Source of the DNA: a virus
Reading direction: 5' to 3' (one strand)
IMG/VR virus record: IMGVR_UViG_3300045995_000108
Coordinates: 1-64,000 of that record
Length of the DNA stretch: 64,000 bases
The notes below the pieces were generated by a model. The model was not told the DNA's origin. It did no database searches and saw only the letters and a program-made list of their open reading frames with translations. Both the position numbers and the translations under genes were made by a program. Shown here piece by piece: positions 5,344-60,405 of the stretch (position 1 is its first letter; every line of letters begins with the position of its first letter).

Positions 5344-5355
5344 CAAAGGCGGCAC

Positions 5356-6639: not shown

Positions 6640-8087
6640 TGTCCAAATTACTATATGATAGCGACGACTGGTCGTTTGAACGTCTAGGCATTGTAGAAGA
6701 TGCAATTAAAGAGATAGCATACGACGAGTTGAACCTTGACGTCTATCCTAACCAGATTGAGATCATCTCCTCTGACCAAATGCTTGAGGCATACGCAAGC
6801 ATTGGTCTCCCACTGATGTACGATCACTGGAGTTTTGGTAAATCGTTCATCCAGCAAGAGCAATCGTATCGCAAAGGCCACCAAGGGCTTGCATACGAGA
6901 TTGTTATTAACAGTTCGCCTTGCATCTCCTACTTGATGGAGGAAAATTCCATGACAATGCAAGCATTGGTTATTGCTCATGCTTGTTACGGACACAATCA
7001 CTTCTTCAAGAACAACTACTTGTTCAAGCAATGGACTGATGCAGAGGGCATCCTTGACTACTTACAGTTTGCAAAGAACTATGTTGCAAAATGCGAAGAG
7101 AAGCATGGACGTCAAGCAGTAGAGGATACACTGGATGCCTGCCACGCTATTATGGACTACGGCGTTGATCGTTACAAGCGCCCAAGTAAGTTGAGCAAAG
7201 CTGCTGAAATGGAAGCACAAGAGCAACGTGCAGAGCGTGTACAACGCGAGGCAAATGAATTGTGGTCCACGATACCCAAGAAAGACAAAAAGGATGAGAA
7301 GGTTGTTAAGACATTTCCGTCTGAGCCACAAGAGAACCTTATGTACTTCATTGAGAAGCACAGTCCTGTTCTTGAATCGTGGCAACGTGAGTTGGTGCGT
7401 ATTGTACGTAAGACAGCACAATACTTTTATCCGCAACGGCAAACACAAGTGATGAACGAAGGTTGGGCCAGCTTTACACATTACTTTATTATGAACCGTC
7501 TGTGGGAAAAAGGACAAATCAGTGATGGCAACATGATGGAGTTCTTGCACTCGCACTCTGGGGTGTTGACGCAAAGGAAATTCAATGACAAACACTACTC
7601 CGGATTTAATCCTTATGCTATTGGGTTTGATCTCTATACTGATATTCGCCGTATATGCTCCGAACCCACCAAAGAAGATGAAGAGTTCTTTCCGCACCTG
7701 GTGGGTCAACCTTGGCTTCCCACTTGTCTTGACGCTGTGCGTAATTATCGTGATGAAAGCTTCATTTCACAGTTTCTGAGCCCACACCTAATTCGCAAGT
7801 GGGGATTGTTTGAGATTACAAACAAGGCTGCTGACAAGCATGTAACCATCTCCAACATTCAAGATGCTCGTGGGTACAATGCAGTACGCCAAAGCCTTGC
7901 ACAACAATATTCCGCAACATCACGCCAGCCGGACATTCAAGTCGTGGATGCTAACTTGCGTGGCAACCGCGAGTTGAAGCTGCAATACACATCACGCAAT
8001 GGCGCAAAGCTAAACAAGGACAAGGACAAAGTATTGTCCCACATTGGTAAGCTTTGGGGACACACTGTAACGATGTCTGACAAGTGA
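6639..8087 (+). CDS. ycgB: SpoVR/YcgB family protein
   Basis: HWSFGK, GLAYEIVINSSPCISYLMEEN, HACYGHNHFFKNN, QVMNEGWASF; canonical third gene of the prkA-yeaH-spoVR trio. Confidence 0.95.
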   Translation: MSKLLYDSDDWSFERLGIVEDAIKEIAYDELNLDVYPNQIEIISSDQMLEAYASIGLPLMYDHWSFGKSFIQQEQSYRKGHQGLAYEIVINSSPCISYLMEENSMTMQALVIAHACYGHNHFFKNNYLFKQWTDAEGILDYLQFAKNYVAKCEEKHGRQAVEDTLDACHAIMDYGVDRYKRPSKLSKAAEMEAQEQRAERVQREANELWSTIPKKDKKDEKVVKTFPSEPQENLMYFIEKHSPVLESWQRELVRIVRKTAQYFYPQRQTQVMNEGWASFTHYFIMNRLWEKGQISDGNMMEFLHSHSGVLTQRKFNDKHYSGFNPYAIGFDLYTDIRRICSEPTKEDEEFFPHLVGQPWLPTCLDAVRNYRDESFISQFLSPHLIRKWGLFEITNKAADKHVTISNIQDARGYNAVRQSLAQQYSATSRQPDIQVVDANLRGNRELKLQYTSRNGAKLNKDKDKVLSHIGKLWGHTVTMSDK

Positions 8088-20393: not shown

Positions 20394-20418
20394 AAGGGCA
20401 GCAATGCCCTTCTCCTTT
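20394..20418 (+). terminator. Intrinsic terminator
   Basis: AAGGGCA-GCAA-TGCCCTT hairpin followed by a pyrimidine tract. Confidence 0.65.
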
Positions 20419-20451
20419 GACTGAATATTCCATTTAATGTACAATGGTATC

Positions 20452-21312
20452 ATGAAAATACAATTAGTCTCCGATCTTCACTTAGATATGTACGATATGT
20501 CGCTCCCGGGCGGCGATGTGCTGATTTTGGCTGGCGACATTTGTGAAGCCCGCGAGTATGGCAAGGGCAATTACAACAAAGACTGGGTAATGAAGCCAGG
20601 CGACAATCCTGGTAGACGGGAAGATCGCTACCTCCGCTTTATGCACGAGGAAGTCACAAAGTACAATAAAGTGTTCTACATTGCTGGTAATCACGAGCAT
20701 TGGGGCACAAAAATGTACAAAACCCACCAGTTTATGCGCGAAAATGCCCCAGCTAATACTACAGTGCTGGAAAACGAAATCTGCGTACACGAAGGCGTTT
20801 TATTTCTAGGTGCTACATACTGGACAGACTTTAACAAAGGTGATGGTCTGACAATGTACAATGCTGGCGCAGGTGCCAGTGCTAACAGCCAAATTGGAAT
20901 GAATGACTACAGGCACATCAAGCACCTGTCGCATGGAATTTACCGCAAGCTGCTTCCAAAAGACATTCTGGAAATCCATTACAAGTCGCGGCAATACTTT
21001 AACCATATTCTGAGCGAGAATCGTCAGAAAGAAAATCCTCTGCCTGTTGTAGTGATGACGCATCATGCACCTACTGCACTTAGTATTCCTGAGTGGTACA
21101 AAAACGATTACCTGATGAATGGTTGCTACTACAGCGACCAAAGTGATATGATACTTGACAACCCACAAATCAAATACTGGGTTCACGGACATACTCACCA
21201 ACCATTTAGGTACAATGTGGGCGACGATACTGAAGTTATCTGCAACCCACGGGGCTATTATGGGTACGAATCGTCTGCCAATAGTTATACCCCACTTGAG
21301 TTGGAGATCTAA
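20452..21312 (+). CDS. Calcineurin-like metallophosphoesterase
   Basis: SDLH, AGD, GNHE, THHAP, HGHTH, CNPRGY. Confidence 0.92.
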   Translation: MKIQLVSDLHLDMYDMSLPGGDVLILAGDICEAREYGKGNYNKDWVMKPGDNPGRREDRYLRFMHEEVTKYNKVFYIAGNHEHWGTKMYKTHQFMRENAPANTTVLENEICVHEGVLFLGATYWTDFNKGDGLTMYNAGAGASANSQIGMNDYRHIKHLSHGIYRKLLPKDILEIHYKSRQYFNHILSENRQKENPLPVVVMTHHAPTALSIPEWYKNDYLMNGCYYSDQSDMILDNPQIKYWVHGHTHQPFRYNVGDDTEVICNPRGYYGYESSANSYTPLELEI

Positions 21313-21806
21313 TGTCAAATAACAATACAGCCGGCACAGTTGGCCAAGCTGGTGCTCAAGCAATCTTGGATATGCTTAAGCAAACGCCGTTGCATAATCA
21401 AAACTGGAATGCAATCGCAGGTGTCGGTGCAGCGGGACCAATTGGATCAACTATCCCTGGCAGCATTGTTACTGGTGGGCTGACAACGGGGAGCGTTATT
21501 TCGTCAGGCGCTGCGTCAAGCGGCTACGCTGCGAGCTTCCAGATTGCACCGACGGGCACATTGACGGCATCGAACTACAATGCTGGGCTTGACCTTAGGG
21601 GTGACGCTGACATCTTGATTGCAGGAATGAGTCTCAAAGATTTTATGAAGCAGGTAACGCTACGTCTTAACTTGATGGTTCCTAACCCAGAGATTGAAAA
21701 GCAGTGGGATGAGTTGCGAACGTTGGGTGAAGCATATCGTGCAGTAGAGAAGGAATGCTTAGAGAAGGCCAAAGTTTGGGACATTCTCAAACGGGACAAC
21801 ATCTAA
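21312..21806 (+). CDS. Hypothetical phage protein
   Basis: Low-complexity N-terminus; helical C-terminus ending EKAKVWDIL. Confidence 0.7.
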   Translation: MSNNNTAGTVGQAGAQAILDMLKQTPLHNQNWNAIAGVGAAGPIGSTIPGSIVTGGLTTGSVISSGAASSGYAASFQIAPTGTLTASNYNAGLDLRGDADILIAGMSLKDFMKQVTLRLNLMVPNPEIEKQWDELRTLGEAYRAVEKECLEKAKVWDILKRDNI

Positions 21807-21991
21807 TGATTACTGTAACCCTCCCTGCAGATGTGCTGCTGGTAGCAGACGCTATTAAGTGGTGTGCTCTCAATATCCCAGACAAAGAAGGATGGGATAT
21901 GCAAGCAGACTTTAGTGCTAAGACGAAATACAGATTTGAGTTTGACGATGCGAGATATGCTACGTTATTTGCCTTGAAGTGGGTACATTAA
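21806..21991 (+). CDS. FxL[KR]W-array protein
   Basis: Ends FEFDDARYATLFALKWVH. Confidence 0.8.
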   Translation: MITVTLPADVLLVADAIKWCALNIPDKEGWDMQADFSAKTKYRFEFDDARYATLFALKWVH

Positions 21992-21998
21992 ATAATGA

Positions 21999-22286
21999 AT
22001 GCCCATACCATTACACCACATTAACCTATACAAACATGGAACAATTGCATACTATAATGGCAATCCATACTTCATTGATTACGTTACAATTCGTGGCCAT
22101 GAACTATTTGTTCGTCTCGAGGGCTTACGTGATACCGTTGCGCCTCACGACATTAGCGTGGAGGTAACAGTAATTGACTTCAACAGAGAAAACGGCGGAC
22201 CAAGGGCATGGGTTGACAGCAATGCGAGTCCTAATGAACCAGTACCCATTCAAAGTCCAGGCCTACCAGACGACTGGGTCTTCTAG
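21999..22286 (+). CDS. Hypothetical protein (non-member inside the array)
   Basis: ORF lacks the motif. Confidence 0.6.
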   Translation: MPIPLHHINLYKHGTIAYYNGNPYFIDYVTIRGHELFVRLEGLRDTVAPHDISVEVTVIDFNRENGGPRAWVDSNASPNEPVPIQSPGLPDDWVF

Positions 22287-22584
22287 CTGGGGCGATGCTG
22301 ATCTGATCAGCTTGCGGAAATACTGCATGGACGATGCAGCGTTTACAATGAAGGTAATGAAGAATCTTCAATACGGTCCCATTGCTACAGTGCCTAACAT
22401 TATTCAGGTTACTGGCCCGCACACAGTTGACGGCGAACCTTGGTATCAAATTGACCTTGACTATGAAGCTGCGCAATGGTTACGTGAGCTCGGTGATAAT
22501 CGAGTTATTGAGATAAAAGACATTGATCGCTGCTTCAACATCCCAGAAGATATTTACATCATGACTAAACTGAAGTGGGCTTAA
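22234..22584 (+). CDS. FxL[KR]W-array protein (variant); start uncertain
   Basis: Ends FNIPEDIYIMTKLKWA. Confidence 0.7.
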   Translation: MNQYPFKVQAYQTTGSSSWGDADLISLRKYCMDDAAFTMKVMKNLQYGPIATVPNIIQVTGPHTVDGEPWYQIDLDYEAAQWLRELGDNRVIEIKDIDRCFNIPEDIYIMTKLKWA

Positions 22585-22585
22585 T

Positions 22586-22957
22586 ATGGCACTGGAATCA
22601 TTTGATACACTGTACTGCAAGATAAAAGCCAATGGCGGATGGAAGCCTGGCAAGTTGATAACTTTTACTGGACGGCAATCAGGTAAGTCGACGTTCATGC
22701 AACAGTATATGACACAATGGGTCATGGAGCCTATACAGCCGTTTGCAAGAGTGCAGCTCGGCGCACCACTGCGCGATATGGTTGTGTGCGATGTGAACCA
22801 AGAGATTCAAGACTGGTTAATGGCAAACTTTGAGCCAGGTAAACTGTGGAAATACTTTACGACAAAAGACATTCACGGTGATTACCCTGGGCAGGGCAGG
22901 GATCGCGTTGCTATGCGTCAAGATGTTTATACTGCCCTTGTGTTGAGGTGGTCATGA
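22586..22957 (+). CDS. FxL[KR]W-array protein with N-terminal Walker A-like segment
   Basis: GGWKPGKLITFTGRQSGKST; ends YTALVLRWS. Confidence 0.8.
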   Translation: MALESFDTLYCKIKANGGWKPGKLITFTGRQSGKSTFMQQYMTQWVMEPIQPFARVQLGAPLRDMVVCDVNQEIQDWLMANFEPGKLWKYFTTKDIHGDYPGQGRDRVAMRQDVYTALVLRWS

Positions 22958-23145
22958 GTTACGAGTATTACGTTCAACGCAAGTCAGGTATTGACAGACT
23001 TGAAAGCGAAGAAGCTTGGTTAGAACGAATGGAAGATATGCGGCAGTGGTGCTATGACAGATTTGAAAAATGGGGCAGATCGCAAGAAATATTTTGGTTC
23101 CAGAAAGAAGAAGATTACGCAATGTTTATGCTGAGGTGGGCATGA
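22954..23145 (+). CDS. FxL[KR]W-array protein
   Basis: Ends FWFQKEEDYAMFMLRWA. Confidence 0.85.
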   Translation: MSYEYYVQRKSGIDRLESEEAWLERMEDMRQWCYDRFEKWGRSQEIFWFQKEEDYAMFMLRWA

Positions 23146-23330
23146 GCAAGTTTATTAAAGTCACAATAGACAAGGACAAGTTCTTTGAGGCTAAGAAGTG
23201 GGCTAAGAAAACATTTGGGAGAGCAAACCCAAATAAAGGACCGTGGAGCGACATGGTGTGGTATGCACATCATCACTTTTACTTCTCTGTCCCTGAACAC
23301 GCAACGATGTTTATGTTGAGGTGGATGTAA
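23142..23330 (+). CDS. FxL[KR]W-array protein
   Basis: Ends FYFSVPEHATMFMLRWM. Confidence 0.85.
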   Translation: MSKFIKVTIDKDKFFEAKKWAKKTFGRANPNKGPWSDMVWYAHHHFYFSVPEHATMFMLRWM

Positions 23331-23548
23331 TGGCAAAAGTATTGTTAACTGATGCAAAGTTTGAGTACAGGTATGCTCAACAGATTTTTAAAGAGCGTGA
23401 GTCGTGGGCACGGGAACATTGCCCGTCGTTTATGCAAATGGACATAGTTGATGTGAGTGACTATACTTACGAGTACGACCAAATTGCAACATACGAGTTT
23501 GGCGACGAGAAAGATGCGTTCTGGTTTACGACTGCGTGGCAATCATGA
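23330..23548 (+). CDS. FxL[KR]W-array protein (variant)
   Basis: Ends YEFGDEKDAFWFTTAWQS. Confidence 0.8.
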   Translation: MAKVLLTDAKFEYRYAQQIFKERESWAREHCPSFMQMDIVDVSDYTYEYDQIATYEFGDEKDAFWFTTAWQS

Positions 23549-23766
23549 TGCGAGTAAGACTTAAAGACAGGATGAAGATACACGCCGAGGGCGGAAACTC
23601 GCAAGCATATCTTGAAGAGGTGTATGCTTGGTTGGAAGAAGTGATACCTAACCCGCCCCTGCCAGAGGAACAGAATTTTACATTTGGTAACGGTGAATAT
23701 TTTGGACACATAGAGTTTAAAGACGATGACTACGCTACGTTGTTTGCGCTCAAATACGGGTACTGA
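23545..23766 (+). CDS. FxL[KR]W-array protein
   Basis: Ends IEFKDDDYATLFALKYGY. Confidence 0.85.
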   Translation: MMRVRLKDRMKIHAEGGNSQAYLEEVYAWLEEVIPNPPLPEEQNFTFGNGEYFGHIEFKDDDYATLFALKYGY

Positions 23767-23776
23767 GGAACAAGGA

Positions 23777-24031
23777 ATGATTAAGACAGTAATCAGGTTT
23801 ACGCCGGATATGTACGCTGACCAAAAGACACAACTTAAAGTTGATGTTGAAGCTTGGCTGGTTGAAATGTTTGGACCAGCAGTACCACGCAATAACAATA
23901 AGACACGCAGGCGCAAAAAGTGGTCGATAAAGACAAGCTACTGGGATACTAATAATCCGTCAGGAACAGTCGAAGTGTTCACTCGCTCTCCACAAGATGC
24001 GACGCTGGTGGCACTAAGGTGGGCAAAATGA
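23777..24031 (+). CDS. FxL[KR]W-array protein
   Basis: Ends SPQDATLVALRWAK. Confidence 0.85.
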   Translation: MIKTVIRFTPDMYADQKTQLKVDVEAWLVEMFGPAVPRNNNKTRRRKKWSIKTSYWDTNNPSGTVEVFTRSPQDATLVALRWAK

Positions 24032-24246
24032 CAGCATACGAATCAGCAGCACAGTTTACCCGTGTGTTTCCGTACTGTGTTTCCTTTCCTCGCACTGACG
24101 ATTGGTGGAACGGAGAGTGGCGAGATATAAGCAACTGGTGCTCCGAGACAATAGGTGGTGTTGTGACACATTGGGAATACATGGACAAGTGTTTTTGGTT
24201 TAAGAGGGAAGAGGACAAAACTCTGTTTTTACTAAAATGGAAATAA
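24028..24246 (+). CDS. FxL[KR]W-array protein
   Basis: Ends FWFKREEDKTLFLLKWK. Confidence 0.85.
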   Translation: MTAYESAAQFTRVFPYCVSFPRTDDWWNGEWRDISNWCSETIGGVVTHWEYMDKCFWFKREEDKTLFLLKWK

Positions 24247-24431
24247 GCGACATGATTGGCGTGGCAGTTGAGCGTTGGGATTACACCCACAGGGCGTGGG
24301 TGTGCACTTGGCTTACTGAAACATTTGGCGAACGTGGCAAGGAGACTTGGTTATTAGATCAAGACTACGATTTGCTTACGCTATGCATGACACCGGAGAT
24401 ATACACTCTGTATAAACTAAAATGGGAATAA
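24237..24431 (+). CDS. FxL[KR]W-array protein
   Basis: WLTETFG; ends EIYTLYKLKWE. Confidence 0.8.
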   Translation: MEISDMIGVAVERWDYTHRAWVCTWLTETFGERGKETWLLDQDYDLLTLCMTPEIYTLYKLKWE

Positions 24432-24622
24432 CTTTTGATCATCGGCCTGATCGCCAGTATCATTATGAGACAGTGATAAATTATAGGCCATTGCGACATA
24501 GTATGCTTGCTTGGTTGCTAGAAACATACGGGCCACCGGGTACTGAATGGGACGGCTACGGCTCTTGGATTAAAATTAGAAGCGAGGAAGATGCAACATT
24601 CTTCTTACTAAAATGGAGTTAA
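24422..24622 (+). CDS. FxL[KR]W-array protein
   Basis: WLLETYG; ends SEEDATFFLLKWS. Confidence 0.85.
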   Translation: MGITFDHRPDRQYHYETVINYRPLRHSMLAWLLETYGPPGTEWDGYGSWIKIRSEEDATFFLLKWS

Positions 24623-24858
24623 CAACAGTAAGTCCAGAGACGTTGGACAAAGTGTGGCAAAAGTGGCGAACGGAGCATAGTGCACCAAATGATGTGTGGG
24701 AGCGAAGCTATCAAAGAGTTACTCGGCGCTTTGGTGGCAAGCAGTTTGAAGAATGGTTGTTTACTGAAGGCGCAGTAGTGCAACAGATTAACGGCAAACG
24801 CCACTTACAGTTTATGGATGAAGAACAAGCATCTTACTTTTTATTGAGGTACGCATGA
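24613..24858 (+). CDS. FxL[KR]W-array protein
   Basis: Ends LQFMDEEQASYFLLRYA. Confidence 0.85.
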   Translation: MELTTVSPETLDKVWQKWRTEHSAPNDVWERSYQRVTRRFGGKQFEEWLFTEGAVVQQINGKRHLQFMDEEQASYFLLRYA

Positions 24859-25073
24859 TACCCAGACTACCATACTTGCAAAATGCAGTAAGTGGATATC
24901 ACAAACTACACCCAAGTAGTATTTGGTACCCAAATGCTTATAACTCGTATATCCAGTGGATGCAAGAACAAGGAGTCATTATGCCGATAAAGATGGAGGG
25001 CGATATAGATAGCGTCCGTATAGAATTTACTGATCCAGAATCAGAAACATTGTTTGTATTGAGGTGGGCATGA
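24855..25073 (+). CDS. FxL[KR]W-array protein
   Basis: Ends IEFTDPESETLFVLRWA. Confidence 0.85.
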   Translation: MIPRLPYLQNAVSGYHKLHPSSIWYPNAYNSYIQWMQEQGVIMPIKMEGDIDSVRIEFTDPESETLFVLRWA

Positions 25074-25291
25074 TGAATTGGAACTACTTTGTTAGGGACA
25101 CATGTGACTCCCCATTGGAGAACCCGTACTTTGAATGGGCACGAGAACAGTTTGGTAACATAGGCCCACGGTGGGATGCAAACTTCCAGGGATACTGGTT
25201 TATGAACAAGGAGGATGTCACTCTGTTCATGTTGCGTTGGTCAGGGCACCCACATTTAGGAGAGGTTGAAACAGATGAGTCACACAATTAA
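25070..25291 (+). CDS. FxL[KR]W-array protein
   Basis: WAREQFG; YWFMNKEDVTLFMLRWS. Confidence 0.85.
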   Translation: MMNWNYFVRDTCDSPLENPYFEWAREQFGNIGPRWDANFQGYWFMNKEDVTLFMLRWSGHPHLGEVETDESHN

Positions 25292-25502
25292 AGGCGATTG
25301 CAGTGCAAGCGAGCATGCCGCCCGATTTACGCGGGACAAATATAGTATTCCGTTTGATGAAACCATTGTCCCTAAGTTTGAGGCAGAGTTTAACTGCATA
25401 CTTGATTTTGGCAAGGACAAGCCAGATGCATATATGTATCCAGATTGGATTCAGTTTGAGACTGAGCAGGAAATGATGATGTTTCTGCTGCGATTTGCAT
25501 AG
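25275..25502 (+). CDS. FxL[KR]W-array protein
   Basis: Ends IQFETEQEMMMFLLRFA. Confidence 0.85.
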   Translation: MSHTIKGDCSASEHAARFTRDKYSIPFDETIVPKFEAEFNCILDFGKDKPDAYMYPDWIQFETEQEMMMFLLRFA

Positions 25503-25529
25503 TAAATAATCTTATTGTATAATGTTAAT

Positions 25530-25937
25530 ATGGTAAAACCTACACGCCCTTGGCCCAATCCGCATCGCAATGCTGCTGAACTAGCATTGTATTCGGCACA
25601 GATAAAAGTGATGAACGCTACGAAAAGCATAGCAGCTAAAGTGCTGTGGAAGTTTGGATCTGGACCAGAAGTAGTGGTTAAGTGGCCTGTTGGTTGGGTA
25701 TTGCTACATCAGAACGATGATGGTAGCGCAGTTAGCGCAGACTCAGCTGATCCAAACGATCACTATCGCCCATGGCTTGAAGCCAACGTAGGGAATCAGG
25801 GTTGGGACTGGGATTGGAAGATTAGTGGTATAGCTGCTGATAACGGTTTTGGAACAACAGGCGTTGATACAATATGTATCAAGCTGCGGAAGAAACAGGA
25901 ACATTTCGCAAGCGTAATTGCGTTAAAATGGGCATAG
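25530..25937 (+). CDS. FxL[KR]W-array protein (long)
   Basis: WLEANVG; ends FASVIALKWA. Confidence 0.8.
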   Translation: MVKPTRPWPNPHRNAAELALYSAQIKVMNATKSIAAKVLWKFGSGPEVVVKWPVGWVLLHQNDDGSAVSADSADPNDHYRPWLEANVGNQGWDWDWKISGIAADNGFGTTGVDTICIKLRKKQEHFASVIALKWA

Positions 25938-25997
25938 TACAAGAGTACAGTATTTTATCCTTAAATCAGTTATACATATTCATTTAAGGTGAACACA

Positions 25998-26408
25998 ATG
26001 AGATTAATGACAGCAGTTAAAGCGTTTTTTGATAAACGCGAGCAAGCTAAAAAAGCAGAGGCCAGAGCAGCATTGATATGGCCGCAAGCGTCACGAGTAG
26101 TGGATTTTTACAAAGGGTATCCGTATGTATTTGCTGTCCCTTGGCAGTGCTATGATAATGAATATTGGTCTCAGTTTTCTGATTCTTACGAAGGGATGGG
26201 AGAACTCATGGACTGGTGTCGCGAACACGATTTCAAAGAATTTCGCAGCGATGTACATAGAGTAAGTTTGTCAAATACGTACAATTCTCACAATGCGTCT
26301 GAATATATATTTGACGAGATGGGTGGCGGCGATGTAAAGTTCTTTGCTTTTACGTCATCTGAGGATTTTTGTTTCTTTGCACTACGCTGGGGTTACATTG
26401 CCAGTTAA
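25998..26408 (+). CDS. FxL[KR]W-array protein (long)
   Basis: WCREH; ends FAFTSSEDFCFFALRWGYIAS. Confidence 0.85.
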   Translation: MRLMTAVKAFFDKREQAKKAEARAALIWPQASRVVDFYKGYPYVFAVPWQCYDNEYWSQFSDSYEGMGELMDWCREHDFKEFRSDVHRVSLSNTYNSHNASEYIFDEMGGGDVKFFAFTSSEDFCFFALRWGYIAS

Positions 26409-26703
26409 CATAGGAAGCATTTCCTACTCTGAAGGCGGATTTGATGAGTTTCCTGCGGGTAGCGTTATGTCTAAAGTAGATTACATAGCATACCCTACTG
26501 GAAAAATACCAAGGCCGCCAAAAGGTTACCACTTTCAGATTCAATGCGTGGGTGCTGCCAATTGGGAGTTAGTTAGTCAAAGGCTTGCACAATGCAGATC
26601 AATGATGGAGTTTAATTTTAGATATAACGGTGGCAATAGCTACTTTGATGTTCATTTAACAGACGAGAAAGATATCACATGGTTGAGACTTGCCCTGGCA
26701 TAA
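26398..26703 (+). CDS. FxL[KR]W-array protein (variant), TTG start
   Basis: Ends LTDEKDITWLRLALA. Confidence 0.65.
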   Translation: MPVNIGSISYSEGGFDEFPAGSVMSKVDYIAYPTGKIPRPPKGYHFQIQCVGAANWELVSQRLAQCRSMMEFNFRYNGGNSYFDVHLTDEKDITWLRLALA

Positions 26704-26915
26704 AGCGCACAGTACACTTGAAAGAGTATCCTAAGTTTTGGGAACGGCTGCGTATTTCCGTATTGAAGTCCAGCTATCAAACAACCGCAGCAGGTGCAGA
26801 GCAAGTGATGAAAGAAGAGTTTGGTATTGACGTGGATATACGATCAGCAGACAAGTTAGGCACAGTAATGATGGATGAGGGAACCTATTCTTGGTTCATA
26901 CTACAATGGAGTTGA
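26679..26915 (+). CDS. FxL[KR]W-array protein
   Basis: Ends DEGTYSWFILQWS. Confidence 0.75.
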   Translation: MVETCPGIKRTVHLKEYPKFWERLRISVLKSSYQTTAAGAEQVMKEEFGIDVDIRSADKLGTVMMDEGTYSWFILQWS

Positions 26916-27142
26916 AAAAAGTAACACGCTCTAAGTTCAAGGTAACTATTGAGTGGCCTGAGTTTGATCGCGAAATGCTGTCATGGGCTGAGACTATTTT
27001 TGGCACAGGTGGTGGTCGCGGCACTTGGCGGTATGGGTGGGGTCACTGGATCAAAAGCCAAGACTCTACTCACCGCTTTTTCTTCCGGCGCGAGGAAGAT
27101 GCAACAATGTTTATGCTAAGGTGGGCAAACAATGGAAGATAA
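26906..27142 (+). CDS. FxL[KR]W-array protein
   Basis: WAETIFG; FFFRREEDATMFMLRWA. Confidence 0.85.
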   Translation: MELKKVTRSKFKVTIEWPEFDREMLSWAETIFGTGGGRGTWRYGWGHWIKSQDSTHRFFFRREEDATMFMLRWANNGR

Positions 27143-27536
27143 AGACGCAGATGCAGTGTCAGTAATAGGCAAGATTATCATGCCTGTGATGCGCAAACTC
27201 GCACCTGGATTGATAGCACAACAGATCGTAGGTGTGCAACCAATGACATCCGTGATTACTACCAACGGAGAGTTAGTGTTGGGCACTGCATTTCTTGGCG
27301 GCTCTAAGGAAGGTGAATGGTTTACTGTATCTATTTCTAAGCCCTTCTCCTTTTACTTTGGTAAGGTAGAGAAGAAAACAGACGAGTACAGGAACTGGTG
27401 CATTACAACGTTTGGCGAGTCTTACAATCACCTAACTGACCAATGCTTTTGGTTTGAGCGCGACGATAGGTTCTACTTCCGTAATGAGGCGGATAGAATG
27501 TTGTTCGTATTGAAATGGACACCCAATGGACAGTAA
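27132..27536 (+). CDS. FxL[KR]W-array protein fused to a major-capsid (gp23 Gol-like) peptide
   Basis: IIMPVMRKLAPGLIAQQIVGVQPMT; WCITTFG; FYFRNEADRMLFVLKW. Confidence 0.85.
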   Translation: MEDKDADAVSVIGKIIMPVMRKLAPGLIAQQIVGVQPMTSVITTNGELVLGTAFLGGSKEGEWFTVSISKPFSFYFGKVEKKTDEYRNWCITTFGESYNHLTDQCFWFERDDRFYFRNEADRMLFVLKWTPNGQ

Positions 27537-27816
27537 AGAAGCAATGTGGTTCCACGCGAACTACAACATACAAGAGTTTACAATACAAGATGACATTCGT
27601 TCCTTTGACGATGGACCAATGACCTACCAAATTCGCGGCGACAGAGGAACAGCAACAATAAAGCTGCCTACTCTTGCAGTGGAACGTCTTGTGCAAAATG
27701 CTAAGATTGGATTTGATGAACTTGAACGAGCAAGGGCAAGGGCAGATCATCCTAATGTGCAGGAAGCGTATGACGCATATATCACGCTACTTGCACTAAG
27801 TACAAAATATGACTAA
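27526..27816 (+). CDS. Hypothetical protein (non-member)
   Basis: Ends HPNVQEAYDAYITLLAL. Confidence 0.7.
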   Translation: MDSKEAMWFHANYNIQEFTIQDDIRSFDDGPMTYQIRGDRGTATIKLPTLAVERLVQNAKIGFDELERARARADHPNVQEAYDAYITLLALSTKYD

Positions 27817-28096
27817 CAAAGATGACGAAGAAATGGCCCGTGCGATGAGTGATTTCCTGGTCCCATGGGATTGGAACGATGTCATTTTGCACGAATACAA
27901 AGACGAGCACCTTGATTGGTGCCGTAGTAATGGATTGGTGTTTGGTAAGGACTTTTACATGCACATAGCAGAAGGTACTGAGCCCTCATACAACCCAAAG
28001 CAGAAATGGCCTTTCCCAGAATACAAAAAGATCCATCATTATCTGTTTAAAGACGCAGAAATGGCAACAGCATTTACACTAACATTTTTGACTTAA
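27809..28096 (+). CDS. FxL[KR]W-array protein (variant)
   Basis: WCRSNG; ends YLFKDAEMATAFTLTF. Confidence 0.8.
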   Translation: MTNKDDEEMARAMSDFLVPWDWNDVILHEYKDEHLDWCRSNGLVFGKDFYMHIAEGTEPSYNPKQKWPFPEYKKIHHYLFKDAEMATAFTLTFLT

Positions 28097-28121
28097 AAAC
28101 AATCTTATTGTACAATGCAAC

Positions 28122-28424
28122 ATGGAAATAATGTCGCGTGAAGAATTCAAGGATAGGTTTAGTGTTGACTTTAACGAAGTAATACGTGCAGACCATCCAC
28201 TTTGGATTCCTGAAAATGATTTTGCACCTAAGACTAAGTGCATAAAGTTTGTACTGACTACGAAGCTTAACTTTACGAGTGAAGCAAAGTATGAATATTG
28301 GGAATGGTGCAACAGTACGCTGAACGGCATCGTGCGTTGCTTTTCTTCTGGTGACGAAAATGAATGGTGGGGTTTTTCTGACCCTGATGACGTTGTTATT
28401 TGGACTCTTAAGTGGGCAAAATGA
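28122..28424 (+). CDS. FxL[KR]W-array protein
   Basis: Ends WGFSDPDDVVIWTLKWAK. Confidence 0.85.
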   Translation: MEIMSREEFKDRFSVDFNEVIRADHPLWIPENDFAPKTKCIKFVLTTKLNFTSEAKYEYWEWCNSTLNGIVRCFSSGDENEWWGFSDPDDVVIWTLKWAK

Positions 28425-28735
28425 AATACTTTTTACAGTGGTTAGTGAATGATATTAAGACGAGCTGGGCAGTAGATGCAGAGTCTCGTGCGAGAATGTG
28501 GGGTCATTTTTTAGACGTGGCTAAGTTTTTAGTTAGAATTTTTTCTGCGATAACGTTGATTGTCTCGGCAATATCAATTATTTTAATAACGGCAGAAGAT
28601 GGTCGCATTAACTGGGTCCGCGTTAGTGGTGTTATGATTGCATTACTGGTATTGAACGGTTCTATTTTCCTTGCTGGCAAGCTACGTAAATTTCGCAGCG
28701 AAAAAGATCAGCTAGTGCAAATGCTCAAAGAATAA
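28421..28735 (+). CDS. Two-TM membrane protein (non-member)
   Basis: Two hydrophobic stretches. Confidence 0.7.
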   Translation: MKYFLQWLVNDIKTSWAVDAESRARMWGHFLDVAKFLVRIFSAITLIVSAISIILITAEDGRINWVRVSGVMIALLVLNGSIFLAGKLRKFRSEKDQLVQMLKE

Positions 28736-28736
28736 A

Positions 28737-28982
28737 ATGAAAAAGCTGGTGTCACGTATCAAGGAACGTAAGGGCAACGACCACTATGTGGAAGTGCTGC
28801 TCTACGAACAAGCTACGCACCCAGACGAGTTTAACGATTACTACGACATAGACGAGGCTGATCTCATTGCTATTGCTGATTGGGTTACAGCGCACGAACT
28901 TGGTAAGCGTACATCACATAACCATTGGAAGCTAAACAGCAAAGAAGCTGTGACAATGTTTTTACTACGGTGGAACCAATGA
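28737..28982 (+). CDS. FxL[KR]W-array protein
   Basis: Ends SKEAVTMFLLRWNQ. Confidence 0.85.
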   Translation: MKKLVSRIKERKGNDHYVEVLLYEQATHPDEFNDYYDIDEADLIAIADWVTAHELGKRTSHNHWKLNSKEAVTMFLLRWNQ

Positions 28983-29185
28983 TAAAGCAAGCGTGGAAAA
29001 ACTATAAGCACATAGCAGAGGACTACAAAACCAAGGACGAGTTTGGAATATCATTTGATGGTGCTCGTTTTTGGAGCGACCTTCACGAACAGTTTGGTGC
29101 ACACGCTGACGGATTAGGTGGAATTTACTTTGACACAGAAGAAGGTGAACTGTGCTTCATCTTGAAGTACACAAAAGCAAAATGA
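28979..29185 (+). CDS. FxL[KR]W-array protein
   Basis: Ends IYFDTEEGELCFILKY. Confidence 0.8.
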   Translation: MIKQAWKNYKHIAEDYKTKDEFGISFDGARFWSDLHEQFGAHADGLGGIYFDTEEGELCFILKYTKAK

Positions 29186-29385
29186 TAACGTTCTCTGAGC
29201 GCGAGTGGGATGCAGTAAAAGAAACGTTGGCAGAAGACCACGGACCAACGATTATGCTGCTCCGTAATAGGTGCAAAGAGACGTTGGGATTTACTGTACG
29301 TTACGGCGTTTACGCCGCTCAAGAAGTGCATTTAGACTTCTTTGATGACACCAAGGAGACTTGGTTTAGGCTTCGTTACCTTTAG
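29182..29385 (+). CDS. FxL[KR]W-array protein
   Basis: Ends LDFFDDTKETWFRLRYL. Confidence 0.8.
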   Translation: MITFSEREWDAVKETLAEDHGPTIMLLRNRCKETLGFTVRYGVYAAQEVHLDFFDDTKETWFRLRYL

Positions 29386-30088
29386 ATCTACATTTTTCAA
29401 AGTGCCATTGCTTCATTACACCGCCCCCGCCACTTTTTCCGCAATGCGGACAGGTGACTATTATCTTTTGTTTTCCCCTATTAGCTTGCGCAATTTTTTC
29501 AATGTGCTCTGCCGTCCGTGGAGGCTTCTTTCGGCCTCGCTGGAAATCCGCAATTTTTTGGTTGTGCTCGGCTGTATGAACCTTACCTATATTTTTGGCC
29601 CCGCATTTAGCTTTAGTAGATTCCGAGTGTGTCTGTCCAAGTCTGGATTCTCTTATTTTTTGGATGTGTTCGGGCGAATTAGTGAGGCCTTTTCTGTTTT
29701 GATTTCCTTTACTGGAATTAGAAATTTTTTCCCTAACTTCGGGCGGCCGTTCGCGTCCCAAACTTCCACCGTATAATCCATCTTCAATTACTAAGTTTGC
29801 CCATTGTTTTGAAATAACAATATCGTTATCTTCAGAGAATTTAAGAGCATAGCTCACTAAAGAATGTATGTCAGTAAACAATTCACACCAAATAGTTTCT
29901 ACGTTGGATTTTCCGTGTTTAGCTAAATGAGCTTTCCAAATTTTCCCAGAGCCAGAATATTTGTAGGGATCTGGCCTGGTCGTTTTTCCGAAGTATTTCA
30001 ACCCAGTGATGGTATGCTGCTTTATATAAAGCCAAGTTGGCTTAAAAGTAGCTTGCTTTATATTTAAATTTTTAGTATAATGGTACAT
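29366..30088 (-). mobile_element. Free-standing GIY-YIG (Seg-like) homing endonuclease with NUMOD3 repeats
   Basis: WLYIKQHTITGLKYFGKT...YSGSG..W catalytic domain; repeated HSES/HTAE..KI NUMOD3-like units; C-terminal CPHC; opposite strand with its own ATAAATA box. Confidence 0.82.
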
Positions 30089-42609: not shown

Positions 42610-42817
42610 AAAGTATAACGACTTGCTCGCAAGGTTGAACCAAGCATGGCGTTACGGTCCTCATGGTCTTGTCCCACAAATTCAAATGATGATGGAACAC
42701 TACAAGACCGAAATCTCAGAGCGTATGATCAAACAACAGCAAGACATGGCTGAACGTGCAGCCAAAGGTAAAACTAAAGATGGCAAGGGTTATACTGGAG
42801 TCATTGACATTGTCTAG
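42557..42817 (+). CDS. Hypothetical phage protein
   Basis: MHPLAPSLKD... helical ORF. Confidence 0.65.
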   Translation: MHPLAPSLKDVPDQELYKKYNDLLARLNQAWRYGPHGLVPQIQMMMEHYKTEISERMIKQQQDMAERAAKGKTKDGKGYTGVIDIV

Positions 42818-43097
42818 CATTCCGTTTAACATTGTTAGGGAAGCGGTGGGCAAAACGCACAGGCTACAAGCAAAATGGACAATACAACAGATGCCTGAAG
42901 AACCAACTTGGTACGAGGAATACGAACTCACCGACGAGGAAAAAGAAGGATTGGGTCCCGTAGAGCAGGAGGTGTGGAAAGCTCTTAAAACATCAAAGAT
43001 GCTCGACTTAGAGTCCGAGATTATGGATATGCTGTCTGCAGAAATATGTAAAGAGATGGATGCGCAAATTCTTAAGGAAATGTTACGTGGAACATAA
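42810..43097 (+). CDS. Small protein resembling a fragment of T4-type major capsid protein
   Basis: FNIVREAVGKTHRLQAKWT...LDLESEIMDMLSAEICKEMDAQIL; TTG start with GGAG upstream. Confidence 0.7.
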   Translation: MSSIPFNIVREAVGKTHRLQAKWTIQQMPEEPTWYEEYELTDEEKEGLGPVEQEVWKALKTSKMLDLESEIMDMLSAEICKEMDAQILKEMLRGT

Positions 43098-43242
43098 GCT
43101 AAATGAAGATGAGCAAAAGGTGTGGGAGATTTTGTCTACTCCATATGTCCCGCCGTATGACATGAATGATCCTGCTTACATTCAAAAGTTGATTGACGAA
43201 GTTAAAGCATCATTTCTAGCAAAGCAAAATGAGATACGATAA
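43087..43242 (+). CDS. Hypothetical protein
   Basis: GTG start with AAGGA RBS; EQKVWEIL motif. Confidence 0.55.
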   Translation: MEHKLNEDEQKVWEILSTPYVPPYDMNDPAYIQKLIDEVKASFLAKQNEIR

Positions 43243-43747
43243 ATTCGGACAAGGTTACGCCACACAAGACGAGCTCTGTGATTTATTGTACAGAGATCCA
43301 GCACTAAAGCTGGAACAGTTTAAGGTAGAGGATTGGGACGAGTATAACTATCATGTCAAATCGACATACGCCCCCTTCCCCCTAGTACAAGAGTACCACC
43401 CACTGCCACCAGATTACGACATTGCTTCTTACGATAGAGCACAGCAAGAGAACTGGTATATGCCAGACGAATATAAAACATTGGATATAGCGGCATACGT
43501 TTTAGGACTATGCAAGACAGAAGAAGAGTTACAGAGAGTGGGACAAGAGCTACTGTTATTTTATGACCGTAACCTTGAGAACCTGCTAAGATATATGAAG
43601 TACATGGTAGATACCATGCGTAAGAACAATGTCGTGATGGGGTTAGGTCGTGGGTCAAGTACAGCAAGCTATGTGCTCTACTTGTTAGGGGTGCACAAAA
43701 TCAATTCGATCTACTTCGACCTGCCAATTGAGGAATTTTTGAAGTGA
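43229..43747 (+). CDS. DNA polymerase III alpha-subunit fragment (split DnaE)
   Basis: RVGQELLLF, YMVDTMRKNNVVMGLGRGSSTASYVLYLLGVHKIN matches the family-C GRGS motif; only 172 aa. Confidence 0.85.
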   Translation: MRYDKFGQGYATQDELCDLLYRDPALKLEQFKVEDWDEYNYHVKSTYAPFPLVQEYHPLPPDYDIASYDRAQQENWYMPDEYKTLDIAAYVLGLCKTEEELQRVGQELLLFYDRNLENLLRYMKYMVDTMRKNNVVMGLGRGSSTASYVLYLLGVHKINSIYFDLPIEEFLK

Positions 43748-58290: not shown

Positions 58291-58821
58291 TTAGCGTTTC
58301 CATTCAGCGTAGATTCTATTGTTTGTGTCCCATACACATTCTACTAACTTAAACCCAAACTTGTCAGATAATCGCACATGCTCTTCCACAGTCCAAGGAT
58401 AGAAGTTGATGTCTTGACATTCAACGTTTAGGTGATCCTTGCTACCTGGGTTGCAGCGCCAATAGATTCTAGCTTTGTCGGTTAACAGTGATACTACTTT
58501 AGTAGTTTGTCTTTCAACATCCTCTACTGTGCCAAAATTGATAGAGCCTAAGCAAAATGCAACATCAAACTTCTTGTTCGTTTGGAGGTCGTCGATTCCT
58601 ACTTTCATATCAGCTTGGTCAAATGCAGGGTCAATGCCAAATAGATTTGGTATCAAACCTTTGAACGGATTTGCTCCGCAGCCAACGTCAATTACGGACT
58701 CACCGTAGTTAACTTTTTTAACCAGCGCGAGGCCAGATTTTTCGTATTGCGCTAGTGAGCCGTTTTTACGGTACCAGATGGTACCAAAGTAATGGTTGAG
58801 ATATTCTTGATTTACAGTCAT
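58291..58821 (-). CDS. Class I SAM-dependent methyltransferase-like protein
   Basis: VIDVGCG, GID, FDVAFCLGSINF. Confidence 0.7.
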   Translation of the reverse strand: MTVNQEYLNHYFGTIWYRKNGSLAQYEKSGLALVKKVNYGESVIDVGCGANPFKGLIPNLFGIDPAFDQADMKVGIDDLQTNKKFDVAFCLGSINFGTVEDVERQTTKVVSLLTDKARIYWRCNPGSKDHLNVECQDINFYPWTVEEHVRLSDKFGFKLVECVWDTNNRIYAEWKR

Positions 58822-58860
58822 GATTTAGTGTATAATGTAATTAACTATGTATTTATTTCT

Positions 58861-60318: not shown

Positions 60319-60405
60319 ATACTTGGCTTGCACAGTAAGTACACTCAACACCAAGGTTGCGAGAGTACAGTTATTAACCAAGCTGACACTTCAAAAGGAA
60401 AAATC

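What the first reader, a model, noticed from the sequence alone, without database searches (positions are those of the whole stretch)
21806..29385. 7.6-kb tandem array of 26 divergent mini-genes sharing a C-terminal FxL[KR]W domain: candidate modular effector/decoy library
Seen: 26 of 29 consecutive ORFs (about 60-140 aa) end in variants of [FI]x[FL]xxExDAxxFxL[KR][WY], often preceded by W[CLA]xx[TQN][FY]G. Their N-terminal parts are unrelated and variable in length. One more copy lies at 43744. Early-type promoters at 20417, 25495 and 28088 drive the array. Inference: this is a gene accordion built on one small conserved scaffold or docking module carrying diversified cargo. That architecture is expected of a phage anti-defence or host-takeover arsenal under diversifying selection. 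I cannot assign the domain to a characterised family.
Basis: partly seen in the sequence, partly recalled or inferred. Interest (0 to 1): 0.88.

Follow-up and report, generated by a model that had tools for sequence, protein, structure and literature searches.

The report
Chained array of LRW-tail mini-proteins
A giant uncultured freshwater phage carries about two dozen old, very different copies of one tiny phage-only protein that no catalogue describes, chained so that each gene's last codons also form the next gene's ribosome-binding site; one copy carries a piece of the phage's own capsid protein, and what any of them does is untested.

Summary
29 back-to-back + strand ORFs fill 21806-29385. 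A profile built only from foreign sequences finds 22 of them (E<0.1; 18 at E<0.01), and these are the top 22 of 1,974 ORFs in the 115-kb contig. Four more share only the tail motif. The copy at 43744 is not supported.

The family is large and undescribed:
- 1,862 clusters in metagenomes, with no Pfam, PHROG, NCBIfam or PDB match.
- It was found in all 80 fetched viral contigs, always as same-strand arrays, with 9-37 matches in near-complete 260-364 kb genomes.
- It also occurs in cultured Sinorhizobium phage Phosso and, weakly, in PA5oct.

Most members are one confident beta-beta-alpha-beta-beta-alpha domain, not a C-terminal module plus cargo. The Leu-Arg-Trp tail is dual-coded: Arg is AGG in 73% of cases against 8% elsewhere. 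TTGAGGTGGnCATGA supplies the next gene's Shine-Dalgarno and start.

The array is not a recent accordion. Paralogues are at most 43% identical, 806 of 830 members match best in another genome, and dN/dS is about 0.12.

ORF 27132-27536 belongs to a conserved subfamily that carries the capsid protein's N-terminal, Gol-equivalent segment.

Function is inferred only: early small binding proteins. This scan found the same family earlier in at least 8 other genomes.

The parts
20417..20445 (+). sigma70-like promoter TTGACT-N17-(TG)TACAAT, first of three candidate promoters for the array transcription units
   Evidence: Exact match to a motif with 12 matches in the window (up to 1 mismatch) against 0.63 expected. 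Function as a promoter is inferred.
20437..21312 (+). metallophosphoesterase gene, first gene behind the promoter
   Evidence: Pfam Metallophos, E 4.7e-12. In PA5oct a family member lies directly upstream of a metallophosphoesterase gene.
21312..21806 (+). 164-aa ORF of unknown function; its stop overlaps the start of the first array gene (TAATG)
   Evidence: no Pfam family
21806..21991 (+). family member 1 (61 aa)
   Evidence: foreign-only HMM E 1.6e-6
21999..22286 (+). non-member ORF (95 aa) inside the array
   Evidence: no motif and no HMM hit
22327..22584 (+). weak member; start uncertain (22174-22327)
   Evidence: Tail motif only; leave-one-out E 0.11. A similar ORF stands in the G001 array.
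22586..22957 (+). member (123 aa) with an N-terminal extension holding an isolated Walker-A-like GRQSGKST
   Evidence: HMM E 0.019. The extension is conserved in L032 and L029. Pfam gives only AAA_14, E 0.087.
22954..23145 (+). member (63 aa)
   Evidence: HMM E 5.9e-12
23142..23330 (+). member (62 aa)
   Evidence: HMM E 2.5e-12; close metagenomic relative P0002
23330..23548 (+). member (72 aa)
   Evidence: HMM E 1e-4
23545..23766 (+). member (73 aa)
   Evidence: HMM E 5.2e-4
23777..24031 (+). member (84 aa)
   Evidence: HMM E 3.6e-7
24028..24246 (+). member (72 aa)
   Evidence: HMM E 5.2e-11; 62% identical orthologue in L033
24237..24431 (+). member (64 aa); its ATG lies inside the preceding gene's AAA-TGG (Lys-Trp) codons
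   Evidence: HMM E 7.7e-5; start context
24422..24622 (+). member (66 aa); start inside the preceding AAATGG
   Evidence: HMM E 1.9e-9
24613..24858 (+). member (81 aa); start inside the preceding AAATGG
   Evidence: HMM E 0.0033
24855..25073 (+). member (72 aa)
   Evidence: HMM E 1.2e-4
25070..25291 (+). member (73 aa) with an unusual 15-residue tail after LRW
   Evidence: HMM E 2.8e-13
25275..25502 (+). member (75 aa), last gene of the first transcription unit
   Evidence: HMM E 1.4e-4
25494..25523 (+). second promoter-like site (TTTGCA-N18-TATAAT with TTATTG upstream of the -10)
   Evidence: Its 21-nt core is 90% identical to the 28097-28117 site (D14).
25530..25937 (+). weak member (135 aa) of a distinct long subfamily
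   Evidence: HMM E 1.5. N-terminal part is conserved in ORFs of 7 other arrays, E 1e-13 to 5e-6.
25989..26408 (+). member (139 aa) with a conserved N-terminal extension
   Evidence: HMM E 1.4e-5; extension conserved in 7 arrays
26467..26703 (+). doubtful member (ends LRLALA); start uncertain
   Evidence: HMM E 6.6; leave-one-out E 6.7
26679..26912 (+). member (78 aa, ends LQW)
   Evidence: HMM E 0.069
26906..27142 (+). member (78 aa); the copy that was folded
   Evidence: HMM E 2.4e-12. AlphaFold2 pLDDT 85, pTM 0.76, beta-beta-alpha-beta-beta-alpha.
27132..27536 (+). member (134 aa) of the capsid-arm fusion subfamily: residues about 5-57 are homologous to the major capsid protein's N-terminal region, followed by the LRW domain
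   Evidence: HMM E 8e-13. Pfam Gp23 E 1.2e-5. Aligns to T4 gp23 residues 85-121. hhalign to the clade's MCP residues 50-100 gives probability 98%, E 5e-14.
27526..27816 (+). non-member ORF (96 aa)
   Evidence: HMM E 1.5; one weak relative in L014
27809..28096 (+). member (95 aa, ends FTLTFLT)
   Evidence: HMM E 0.0018
28088..28116 (+). third promoter, exact TTGACT-N17-TACAAT
28122..28424 (+). member (100 aa)
   Evidence: HMM E 0.017
28421..28735 (+). non-member, hydrophobic (membrane-like) 104-aa ORF
28737..28982 (+). member (81 aa)
   Evidence: HMM E 0.0016
28979..29185 (+). member (68 aa)
   Evidence: HMM E 0.012
29182..29385 (+). weak member (67 aa, ends FRLRYL), last gene of the array
   Evidence: HMM E 0.25; leave-one-out E 0.06
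29366..30088 (-). convergent homing-endonuclease-like gene with NUMOD3 repeats; overlaps the last array gene by 20 nt and bounds the array
   Evidence: Pfam NUMOD3, E 1.3e-5

Best explanation
Shown:
- The region is an old multigene family of small (about 60-140 aa) phage-only proteins.
- The one member folded, a typical 78-aa copy, is a single beta-beta-alpha-beta-beta-alpha domain. Median family length (83 aa against a 57-position domain profile) suggests most members are the same. The conserved residues (Trp, Cys, Phe, Gly, Trp, Phe, Phe, Leu, Trp) are mainly aromatic or hydrophobic.
- The genes form a translationally chained polycistron behind three sigma70-type promoters.
- The last helix ends Leu-Arg-Trp-x-stop, written TTG AGG TGG nCA TGA. 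The protein's tail therefore also encodes the Shine-Dalgarno sequence and the overlapping ATG of the next gene.
- Each paralogue type has orthologues in other giant phages and evolves under purifying selection.
- Which types a phage carries, how many (9-37) and in what order all differ. Blocks of homology between related arrays break at the gene junctions, so whole genes are gained, lost or replaced as cassettes without breaking expression.

Inferred:
- The conserved aromatic and hydrophobic residues are taken to be the core of the fold, and the remaining, variable positions its surface. No coordinates were available to check burial.
- The proteins are early-expressed small binding proteins. 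Each has its own host (or rival-phage) target and serves host takeover or counter-defence.
- The member at 27132-27536 presents a flexible copy of the capsid protein's N-terminal, Gol-equivalent segment on this scaffold. It most likely mimics that segment towards whatever binds it, such as a capsid sensor or EF-Tu.
For: Family and fold:
- Alignments A1-A3.
- 1,862 representative clusters at E<1e-3, all 44-141 aa among the best 150 listed, with the domain at the C-terminus.
- AlphaFold2 pLDDT 85, pTM 0.76.

Phage-only and undescribed:
- No Pfam, PHROG or NCBIfam match for 80 diverse members.
- No PDB sequence or fold match above background.
- BFVD and ESM Atlas return only uncharacterised viral proteins.
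- No relative in 185,579 prokaryote genomes.

Arrays everywhere: 2-26 same-strand copies in each of 80 viral loci; 9-37 matches in near-complete genomes.

Dual coding:
- Arg at the motif is AGG in 73% of cases against 8% elsewhere in the same genes.
- The next ATG overlaps the stop in about half the cases.
- The junction consensus comes from 614 unique genes.
- The domain ends within 3 residues of the stop in 98.7% of members.

Ancient, conserved paralogues:
- Best hit lies in another genome for 806 of 830 members.
- dN/dS 0.125 against 0.081 for large flanking genes; none above 1.
- Scrambled order.
- Homology-block breakpoints lie within 20 nt of a family stop in 49% of cases against 10% by chance.

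Early class:
- Promoter motif with 12 matches against 0.63 expected; it also precedes the DNA ligase and clamp-region genes.
- The relative PA5oct relies on host RNA polymerase (PMC7318152).

Diverse surfaces: pI 4.4-10.2.

Capsid-arm fusion. The arm has low pLDDT (44-56) while the domain has 81-90.
Against: - No experiment or expression data exist for any member, and no RNA run holds the region.
- 'Early' rests on promoter resemblance alone.
- Purifying selection and conserved orthologues fit any conserved function, not specifically host takeover.
- There is no similarity to any known anti-defence protein.
- The fold search gave only generic alpha/beta sandwiches (best Z 6.2, below the 7-8 typical of unrelated best hits), so binding is inferred from the absence of catalytic-looking conserved residues.
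- The dN/dS sample is biased towards conserved pairs (70% or more aa identity).
- Breakpoints at gene ends are expected for any whole-gene replacement, and near-duplicate loci make the counts non-independent.
Confidence: 0.5

Rival explanations
1. Recent gene accordion. The array arose by recent tandem amplification in this phage and is being diversified by positive selection in an arms race.
For: Tandem same-strand arrangement; copy number varies 9-37 between relatives; the family is phage-only.
Against: - Window paralogues are at most 43% identical, and most are undetectable by BLAST.
- DNA repeats are confined to the 20-50 nt junction.
- 806 of 830 members match best in another genome.
- dN/dS is 0.125 with none above 1.
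Confidence: 0.08
2. Selfish or near-neutral cassettes. The units persist because each carries the signals that keep the downstream gene translated and because the conserved junction promotes recombination. The proteins themselves contribute little to phage fitness.
For: Dual-coded junction; breakpoints at junctions; fluid content and order; branching of metagenome contigs at junctions (loose ends at 25019, 25051 and 27107).
Against: - dN/dS of about 0.12 across the whole coding sequence shows selection on the proteins.
- A confident conserved fold.
- Orthologues are kept across phages whose capsid proteins differ by about 35%.
Confidence: 0.15
3. Capsid-assembly or virion-associated proteins. 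The domain docks on the head or scaffold, and the capsid-arm fusion takes part in or regulates head assembly.
For: A conserved subfamily carries the MCP N-terminal arm. Another array member in G003 carries a mid-MCP segment.
Against: - Sigma70-type promoters shared with replication genes.
- The three PA5oct homologues carry no 'ESI-MS/MS' virion note, while 93 virion proteins do.
- Only 12 of 68 long members carry a capsid segment.
- The domain itself shows no similarity to MCP.
Confidence: 0.12
4. Small nucleic-acid-binding regulators, for example translational or RNA-binding proteins acting on phage or host messages.
For: Weak fold resemblance to KH, ACT, eIF1/SUI1 and DCoH-like alpha/beta sandwiches (Z 5-6). 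About a third of members are basic (pI above 8).
Against: - The Z scores are below the background for unrelated best hits.
- 44% of members are acidic.
- No conserved basic or GXXG-type motif; conserved positions are hydrophobic.
Confidence: 0.1
5. Artefact. The shared tail is only a nucleotide-level ribosome-binding signal, and the ORFs are otherwise unrelated or non-coding.
For: Strong codon bias (AGG, TTG) at the tail shows selection at the RNA level.
Against: - Conservation extends 45-70 residues upstream (WCxExFG, W, FxF, DA).
- Confident fold.
- dN/dS 0.125.
- The profile finds 1,862 clusters.
Confidence: 0.02

Closest known systems
Hyperplastic regions of T4-type phages shuffled through PeSL (promoter-early stem-loop) cassettes (Arbiol et al. 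2010, PMC2839356)
   Same: Runs of small, non-essential, mostly ORFan early genes in T4-related phages. Content differs between relatives by insertion, deletion and replacement of whole genes at short conserved repeats.
   Different: In PeSL regions the repeat is an intergenic promoter plus terminator stem-loop, and the genes are unrelated to each other. Here the repeat is inside the coding sequence (the Leu-Arg-Trp tail, which also serves as Shine-Dalgarno and start). There are only three promoters for 29 genes and no stem-loops between units. All units are paralogues of one fold.
Translational coupling by ATGA/TAATG stop-start overlap with the Shine-Dalgarno inside the upstream gene (general bacterial and phage operon feature; own knowledge)
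   Same: The downstream start overlaps the upstream stop, and the SD lies in the upstream coding sequence.
   Different: Here the SD is fixed in a conserved structural motif of a protein family across hundreds of genes (AGG 73% against 8%). Protein tail and translation signal therefore co-evolve, and the domain is forced to the extreme C-terminus (98.7%).
Lineage-specific expansions of small proteins in jumbo phages (own knowledge of comparative surveys; not checked in a paper here)
   Same: Many paralogues of a small domain in one giant phage genome, with function mostly unknown and variable copy number.
   Different: This family matches no described domain and has the chained junction.
T4 gp23 Gol region, which binds EF-Tu and activates the Lit protease (review PMC3014915)
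   Same: ORF 27132-27536 and its subfamily carry a homologue of the same capsid-protein region: T4 gp23 residues 85-121, the most conserved part of gp23.
   Different: Here the segment is not in a capsid protein. It is fused to an unrelated 70-residue domain in a small gene of an early-type array. EF-Tu binding or any effect on Lit-like systems is untested. The exact Gol residue numbers are from memory.

Membership tests
'LRW-tail' mini-protein family (undescribed; defined here by profile) | Match to a profile built from foreign members only | tested here: met
   18 ORFs at E<0.01 and 22 at E<0.1. They are the top 22 of 1,974 ORFs in the contig. Four claimed members fail (E 0.25 or worse).
'LRW-tail' mini-protein family (undescribed; defined here by profile) | Domain ends at the extreme C-terminus with [LM][RK][WFY]-x-stop, and the tail codons give AGGTGG or AAATGG before an overlapping start | tested here: met
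   Window junctions are listed. Family-wide figures: 98.7% end within 3 residues of the stop; AGG 73%.
'LRW-tail' mini-protein family (undescribed; defined here by profile) | Beta-beta-alpha-beta-beta-alpha single-domain fold | tested here: met
   AlphaFold2 on 26906-27139 with 80 homologues gives pLDDT 85, pTM 0.76. The domain part of 27132-27533 has pLDDT 81-90. Only two members were folded.
'LRW-tail' mini-protein family (undescribed; defined here by profile) | Same-strand tandem arrays in giant phages with a T4-type (Gp23 family) capsid protein | tested here: met
Major capsid protein Gp23 (PF07068), for ORF 27132-27536 | Full-length HK97-type capsid protein matching most of the 376-position profile | tested here: not met
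   Only profile positions 3-32 (window) or 2-61 (relatives) match. The protein is 134 aa and the rest is the LRW domain, so it is a fragment fusion and not a capsid protein.
PeSL cassettes (Arbiol et al. 2010) | Strong sigma70-like promoter plus terminator stem-loop between the shuffled genes | tested here: not met
   Three promoter-like sites for 29 genes. No intergenic stem-loops. Most genes overlap by 1-10 nt.
T4 internal proteins / capsid-targeted proteins | Conserved N-terminal capsid-targeting sequence with a protease site and a variable C-terminal body | tested here: not met
   Conservation is C-terminal and the N-termini are variable.
Known defence or anti-defence and annotated phage families (Pfam, PHROGs, NCBIfam, PDB) | Significant sequence or fold match | tested here: inconclusive
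   No family recurs among 80 members. PDB Foldseek best E 0.18 and VIA best Z 6.2. No dedicated anti-defence library was available, and PADLOC was not run.
Gol-type EF-Tu-binding peptide | Binds EF-Tu domains II/III and enables Lit cleavage | not testable with these tools
   Only homology of the segment to the gp23 region is shown. The host is unknown.

The most novel reading that the evidence does not exclude
The LRW domain is a phage 'display scaffold'. Its conserved capsid-arm subfamily (here 27132-27536) presents the most conserved, Gol-equivalent segment of the major capsid protein early in infection. It would act as a molecular mimic that blocks or pre-empts host factors recognising that segment, such as capsid-sensing abortive-infection systems or EF-Tu-dependent ones. 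The other 20-odd paralogues would each neutralise a different host defence or takeover target. The chained junction would then be a purpose-built system for swapping such inhibitors between giant phages.
Probability: 0.15. Interest if true: 0.85.

Novelty: new variant of a known kind. Interest (0 to 1): 0.6.

Why it matters
- The family takes up 9-37 genes per genome in a whole clade of 260-470 kb phages and has at least 1,862 sequence clusters in metagenomes. It is nevertheless absent from Pfam, PHROGs, NCBIfam and the PDB, so it is one of the larger blind spots in giant-phage gene content.
- Fusing a protein's structural tail with the next gene's ribosome-binding site is a clean natural example of a self-chaining gene cassette. 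It explains why the domain is always C-terminal.
- The capsid-arm fusion gives a concrete, testable lead on how phages might deal with immunity that senses capsid proteins.
- Two cultured phages carry the family: Sinorhizobium phage Phosso with about 31 matches, and Pseudomonas phage PA5oct with 3 weak ones. Experiments are therefore possible.

Tried and rejected
- Megablast and tblastn of the array and of single members against 50,697 GenBank phages gave no match. The one exception is the capsid segment, which hits real capsid genes.
- The search for related loci with the broad alignments failed because no stretch was conserved enough. A single member found nothing.
- Complex prediction of the G001 capsid protein with its own capsid-arm fusion gave no verdict (score 0.00). 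This is not evidence either way.
- Sequencing runs: no RNA holder is listed.
- Laying contigs of four freshwater runs gave fragmentary cover, with parts of 22936-25504 uncovered in two runs and no contig joining across. This is unusable for presence or absence.
- I tested whether the LRW domain descends from the capsid protein. hhalign of the domain against MCP gave E 0.27, so the idea is rejected at this sensitivity.
- I tested whether N-terminal extensions are a general library of fragments of many proteins. Only Gp23 recurs, in 12 of 68 long members. The Walker-A-like piece gives only weak hits: AAA_14 E 0.087, KaiC E 0.36-1.8, and about 480-aa P-loop ORFs at E 0.02-0.07.
- Co-variation of the fusion's arm with its own genome's MCP could not be tested, because the MCP arm is nearly invariant across the five genomes.
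- The PA5oct paper's supplements with per-gene expression are not held. No paper on Phosso was found.
- The T4 late-promoter motif TATAAATA occurs once in the window against 2.3 expected, which is uninformative.

Full report
**What is there**

The window is the first 64 kb of a 115,428-bp IMG/VR viral contig that CheckV rates 29% complete, so it comes from a giant phage. The window carries T4-type replication genes (clamp loader, Cpn10-like co-chaperonin, ATP-dependent ligase), a PrkA-DUF444-SpoVR operon and a TctA transporter. Between 21806 and 29385, 29 small + strand ORFs follow one another with overlapping or abutting stops and starts. 26 of them end in ..F.F..E.DA..F.L[KR][WYF], and most have W[CL]xExFG upstream.

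**Is it more than chance**

- An HMM of the 26 C-termini finds nothing else in the 115 kb; the next best hit has E 0.13.
- Leave-one-out profiles recover 15 of 26 at E<1e-3.
- A profile built only from 267 foreign sequences scores 18 window ORFs at E<0.01 and 22 at E<0.1. These are the top 22 of 1,974 six-frame ORFs.
- Four claimed members are supported only by the tail motif.
- The copy claimed at 43744 (E 0.66-0.77) and ORF 27526-27816 are not members.

**How big the family is**

- The window profile finds 1,862 cluster representatives (E<1e-3) among 1.84 billion proteins. The best 150 listed are all 44-141 aa, with the match at the C-terminus.
- Eighty diverse members match no Pfam, PHROG or NCBIfam family.
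- GenBank phages give no tblastn match to single members.
- A scan of 185,579 prokaryote genomes finds none.
- All 80 IMG/VR loci fetched through one conserved subfamily hold 2-26 same-strand copies.
- Five large relatives (260-364 kb, 74-100% complete, one with terminal repeats) hold 9, 13, 15, 26 and 37 matches in one or two arrays.
- Their capsid proteins are about 66% identical to those of Vibrio phage 2.275.O, PA5oct, Sinorhizobium phage Phosso and Rak2-like coliphages.
- A profile search of those cultured genomes finds 31 matches in Phosso, three weak ones in PA5oct (EST35_0247, 0274, 0275) and none in 2.275.O or Turkey5. All are annotated 'hypothetical'.
- The window's array occurs nearly identically in riverine, pond and wetland metagenomes.

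**Fold**

AlphaFold2 on the 78-aa member 26906-27139, with 80 homologues, gives pLDDT 85 and pTM 0.76. The model is a single beta-beta-alpha-beta-beta-alpha domain covering the whole protein. So the 'variable N-terminal part' of a typical member is the first hairpin of the same domain.

Median member length is 83 aa, and only 76 of 830 members have 35 or more residues ahead of the domain. Foldseek against the PDB finds nothing (best E 0.18). The Foldseek-independent search gives only generic two-layer alpha/beta sandwiches at Z up to 6.2, below the background for unrelated models. BFVD and the ESM Atlas return only uncharacterised proteins of uncultured phages.

Conserved positions are aromatic or hydrophobic (W, C, F, G, W, F, F, L, W). 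Tryptophan makes up 5.5% of residues, and pI ranges from 4.4 to 10.2.

**The junction**

In 712 unique family genes, the Arg of Leu-Arg-Trp is AGG in 73% of cases against 8% for other Arg codons of the same genes. One residue follows Trp in 574 of the 648 genes with the motif, and the next ATG overlaps the stop (ATGA) in about half. The consensus over 614 junctions is TTG AGG TGG nCA TGA.

In the window, three genes instead start at the ATG inside AAA-TGG. DNA repeats in the array are confined to these 20-50 nt. The last helix of the protein therefore also encodes the Shine-Dalgarno and start of the next gene. This explains why the domain ends within three residues of the stop in 98.7% of members. 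I found this before consulting earlier notes, which report the same thing for other genomes.

**Evolution**

- Window paralogues are at most 43% identical, and most are undetectable by BLAST.
- 806 of 830 members have their best match in another genome. The window's best hits elsewhere are 28-62% identical.
- The order of orthologues is not conserved.
- Long N-terminal extensions (22586, 25530, 25989, 27132) recur in orthologues of other arrays.
- Orthologue pairs have median dN/dS 0.125 (IQR 0.09-0.17, none above 1), against 0.081 for large flanking genes.
- Ends of 88%-or-more identical blocks between related arrays lie within 20 nt of a family stop in 49% of 147 cases, against 10% by chance. 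These cases are not independent.

This is an old, diversified family with cassette-wise turnover. It is not a recent accordion.

**Expression signals**

TTGACT-N17-TACAAT, usually preceded by TG, has 12 matches in the window with up to 1 mismatch, against 0.63 expected. Eleven are on the + strand. They include 20417 and 28088 and sites ahead of the ligase and other replication-region genes. The site at 25494 is a close variant. The related PA5oct relies on host RNA polymerase (PMC7318152). Early timing is inferred, not shown.

**The capsid-arm member**

- ORF 27132-27536 matches Pfam Gp23 at its N-terminus (E 1.2e-5).
- It aligns to T4 gp23 residues 85-121.
- Many homologues of 105-135 aa carry the same precomputed Gp23 hit. 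They form a well-conserved subfamily: arm, then KYKFSRAKWY hairpin, then WCxEQFGP..DAWSRW..FRDEKDYxxFxLRW.
- Profile-profile comparison places the arm on residues 50-100 of the clade's own capsid protein (probability 98%, E 5e-14). The LRW domain itself shows no similarity to that protein.
- In the model the arm is of low confidence (pLDDT 44-56) and the domain is confident.
- In T4 this region holds Gol, the most conserved part of gp23, which binds EF-Tu and enables Lit (PMC3014915). The exact Gol residue numbers are from memory.
- Among 68 non-redundant long members, 12 carry a Gp23 segment and no other family recurs.
- One G003 array member carries a mid-capsid segment instead.

What the fusion does is unknown. 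A complex prediction with the cognate capsid protein gave no verdict.

**Reading**

The shown parts are the family, the fold model, the dual-coded chain, the age, the purifying selection, and the variable complement.

The inferred part is function. The arguments for it:
- Early-class promoters.
- Phage-only distribution.
- A conserved core with divergent surfaces and charges.
- Per-paralogue conservation.
- Free gain and loss between phages.

From these I take the proteins to be small binding proteins, each with its own target in the host or a competitor. I give this moderate confidence. The rivals (selfish cassettes, assembly factors, nucleic-acid binders) are not excluded.

The nearest described analogue in behaviour is PeSL-mediated modular shuffling in T4-type hyperplastic regions (PMC2839356). 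The defining PeSL features (intergenic promoter plus stem-loop) are absent here.

**Earlier work by this scan**

The scan had already reported this family in at least eight other genomes. This window adds:
- the foreign-only profile test;
- dN/dS;
- counts in complete genomes;
- the breakpoint statistic;
- the presence in Phosso and PA5oct;
- the demonstration that the capsid-arm fusion is a conserved subfamily homologous to the clade's own capsid protein.

Noticed in passing
window 42756-43097 (+): A separate 113-aa ORF outside the array carries a segment matching the middle of the Gp23 profile (positions 162-197; E 4e-5 to 9e-4). It has no LRW domain. This is a second stand-alone capsid-fragment gene.
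   Followed up: partly
G003:C1:209020-209409 (locus L090): In a related 321-kb phage, one 138-aa array ORF combines a mid-capsid segment (Gp23 profile 129-190, E 9e-7) with an LRW tail (E 1e-5). More than one part of the capsid protein has therefore been fused to this domain.
   Followed up: partly
window 43229-43747 (+): A 172-aa ORF matches only positions 20-94 of the DNA_pol3_alpha NTPase domain (E 5.8e-10).
   Followed up: no
window 22586-22720 (+); P0163, P0066; L089 2290-2670 (-): Several long family members carry an isolated Walker-A-like piece (GRQSGKST, GRGVGKST, ARRTGKSS) ahead of the domain. It gives only weak hits: KaiC/RecA-type P-loops, and about 480-aa P-loop ORFs of related phages at E 0.02-0.07.
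   Followed up: partly
window, 12 sites (8659, 9439, 12697, 14644, 20417, 28088, 39472(-), 44592, 48417, 51581, 51804, 55606): Phage promoter motif TTGAC[TCA]-N17-TACAAT, mostly with TTAwTG before the -10. It has 12 matches against 0.63 expected by chance.
   Followed up: partly
window 29366-30088 (-): Convergent homing-endonuclease-like gene with NUMOD3 repeats. It overlaps the last array gene by 20 nt. On the + strand its repeats appear as a 60-nt periodic repeat at 29489-29575.
   Followed up: no
window 3400-8087 (+): Complete PrkA (AAA_PrkA plus PrkA), DUF444 (YeaH-like) and SpoVR operon in a phage.
   Followed up: no
window 58792-61473 (+): TctA tricarboxylate transporter (E 2.6e-82) and a weak TctC-like receptor encoded by the phage.
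   Followed up: no
window 25019, 25051, 27107 (loose ends in runs X3, X5): Metagenome contigs from other freshwater samples join different LRW-family sequence onto the window's conserved junctions. This could mean co-occurring relatives or recombinant arrays. Two runs also lack cover over parts of 22936-25504.
   Followed up: no
PA5oct MK797984.1 165381-165596 (L112): A distant family member (EST35_0247) lies directly upstream of a metallophosphoesterase gene. In the window the array follows a metallophosphoesterase, which may be a remnant of synteny.
   Followed up: no
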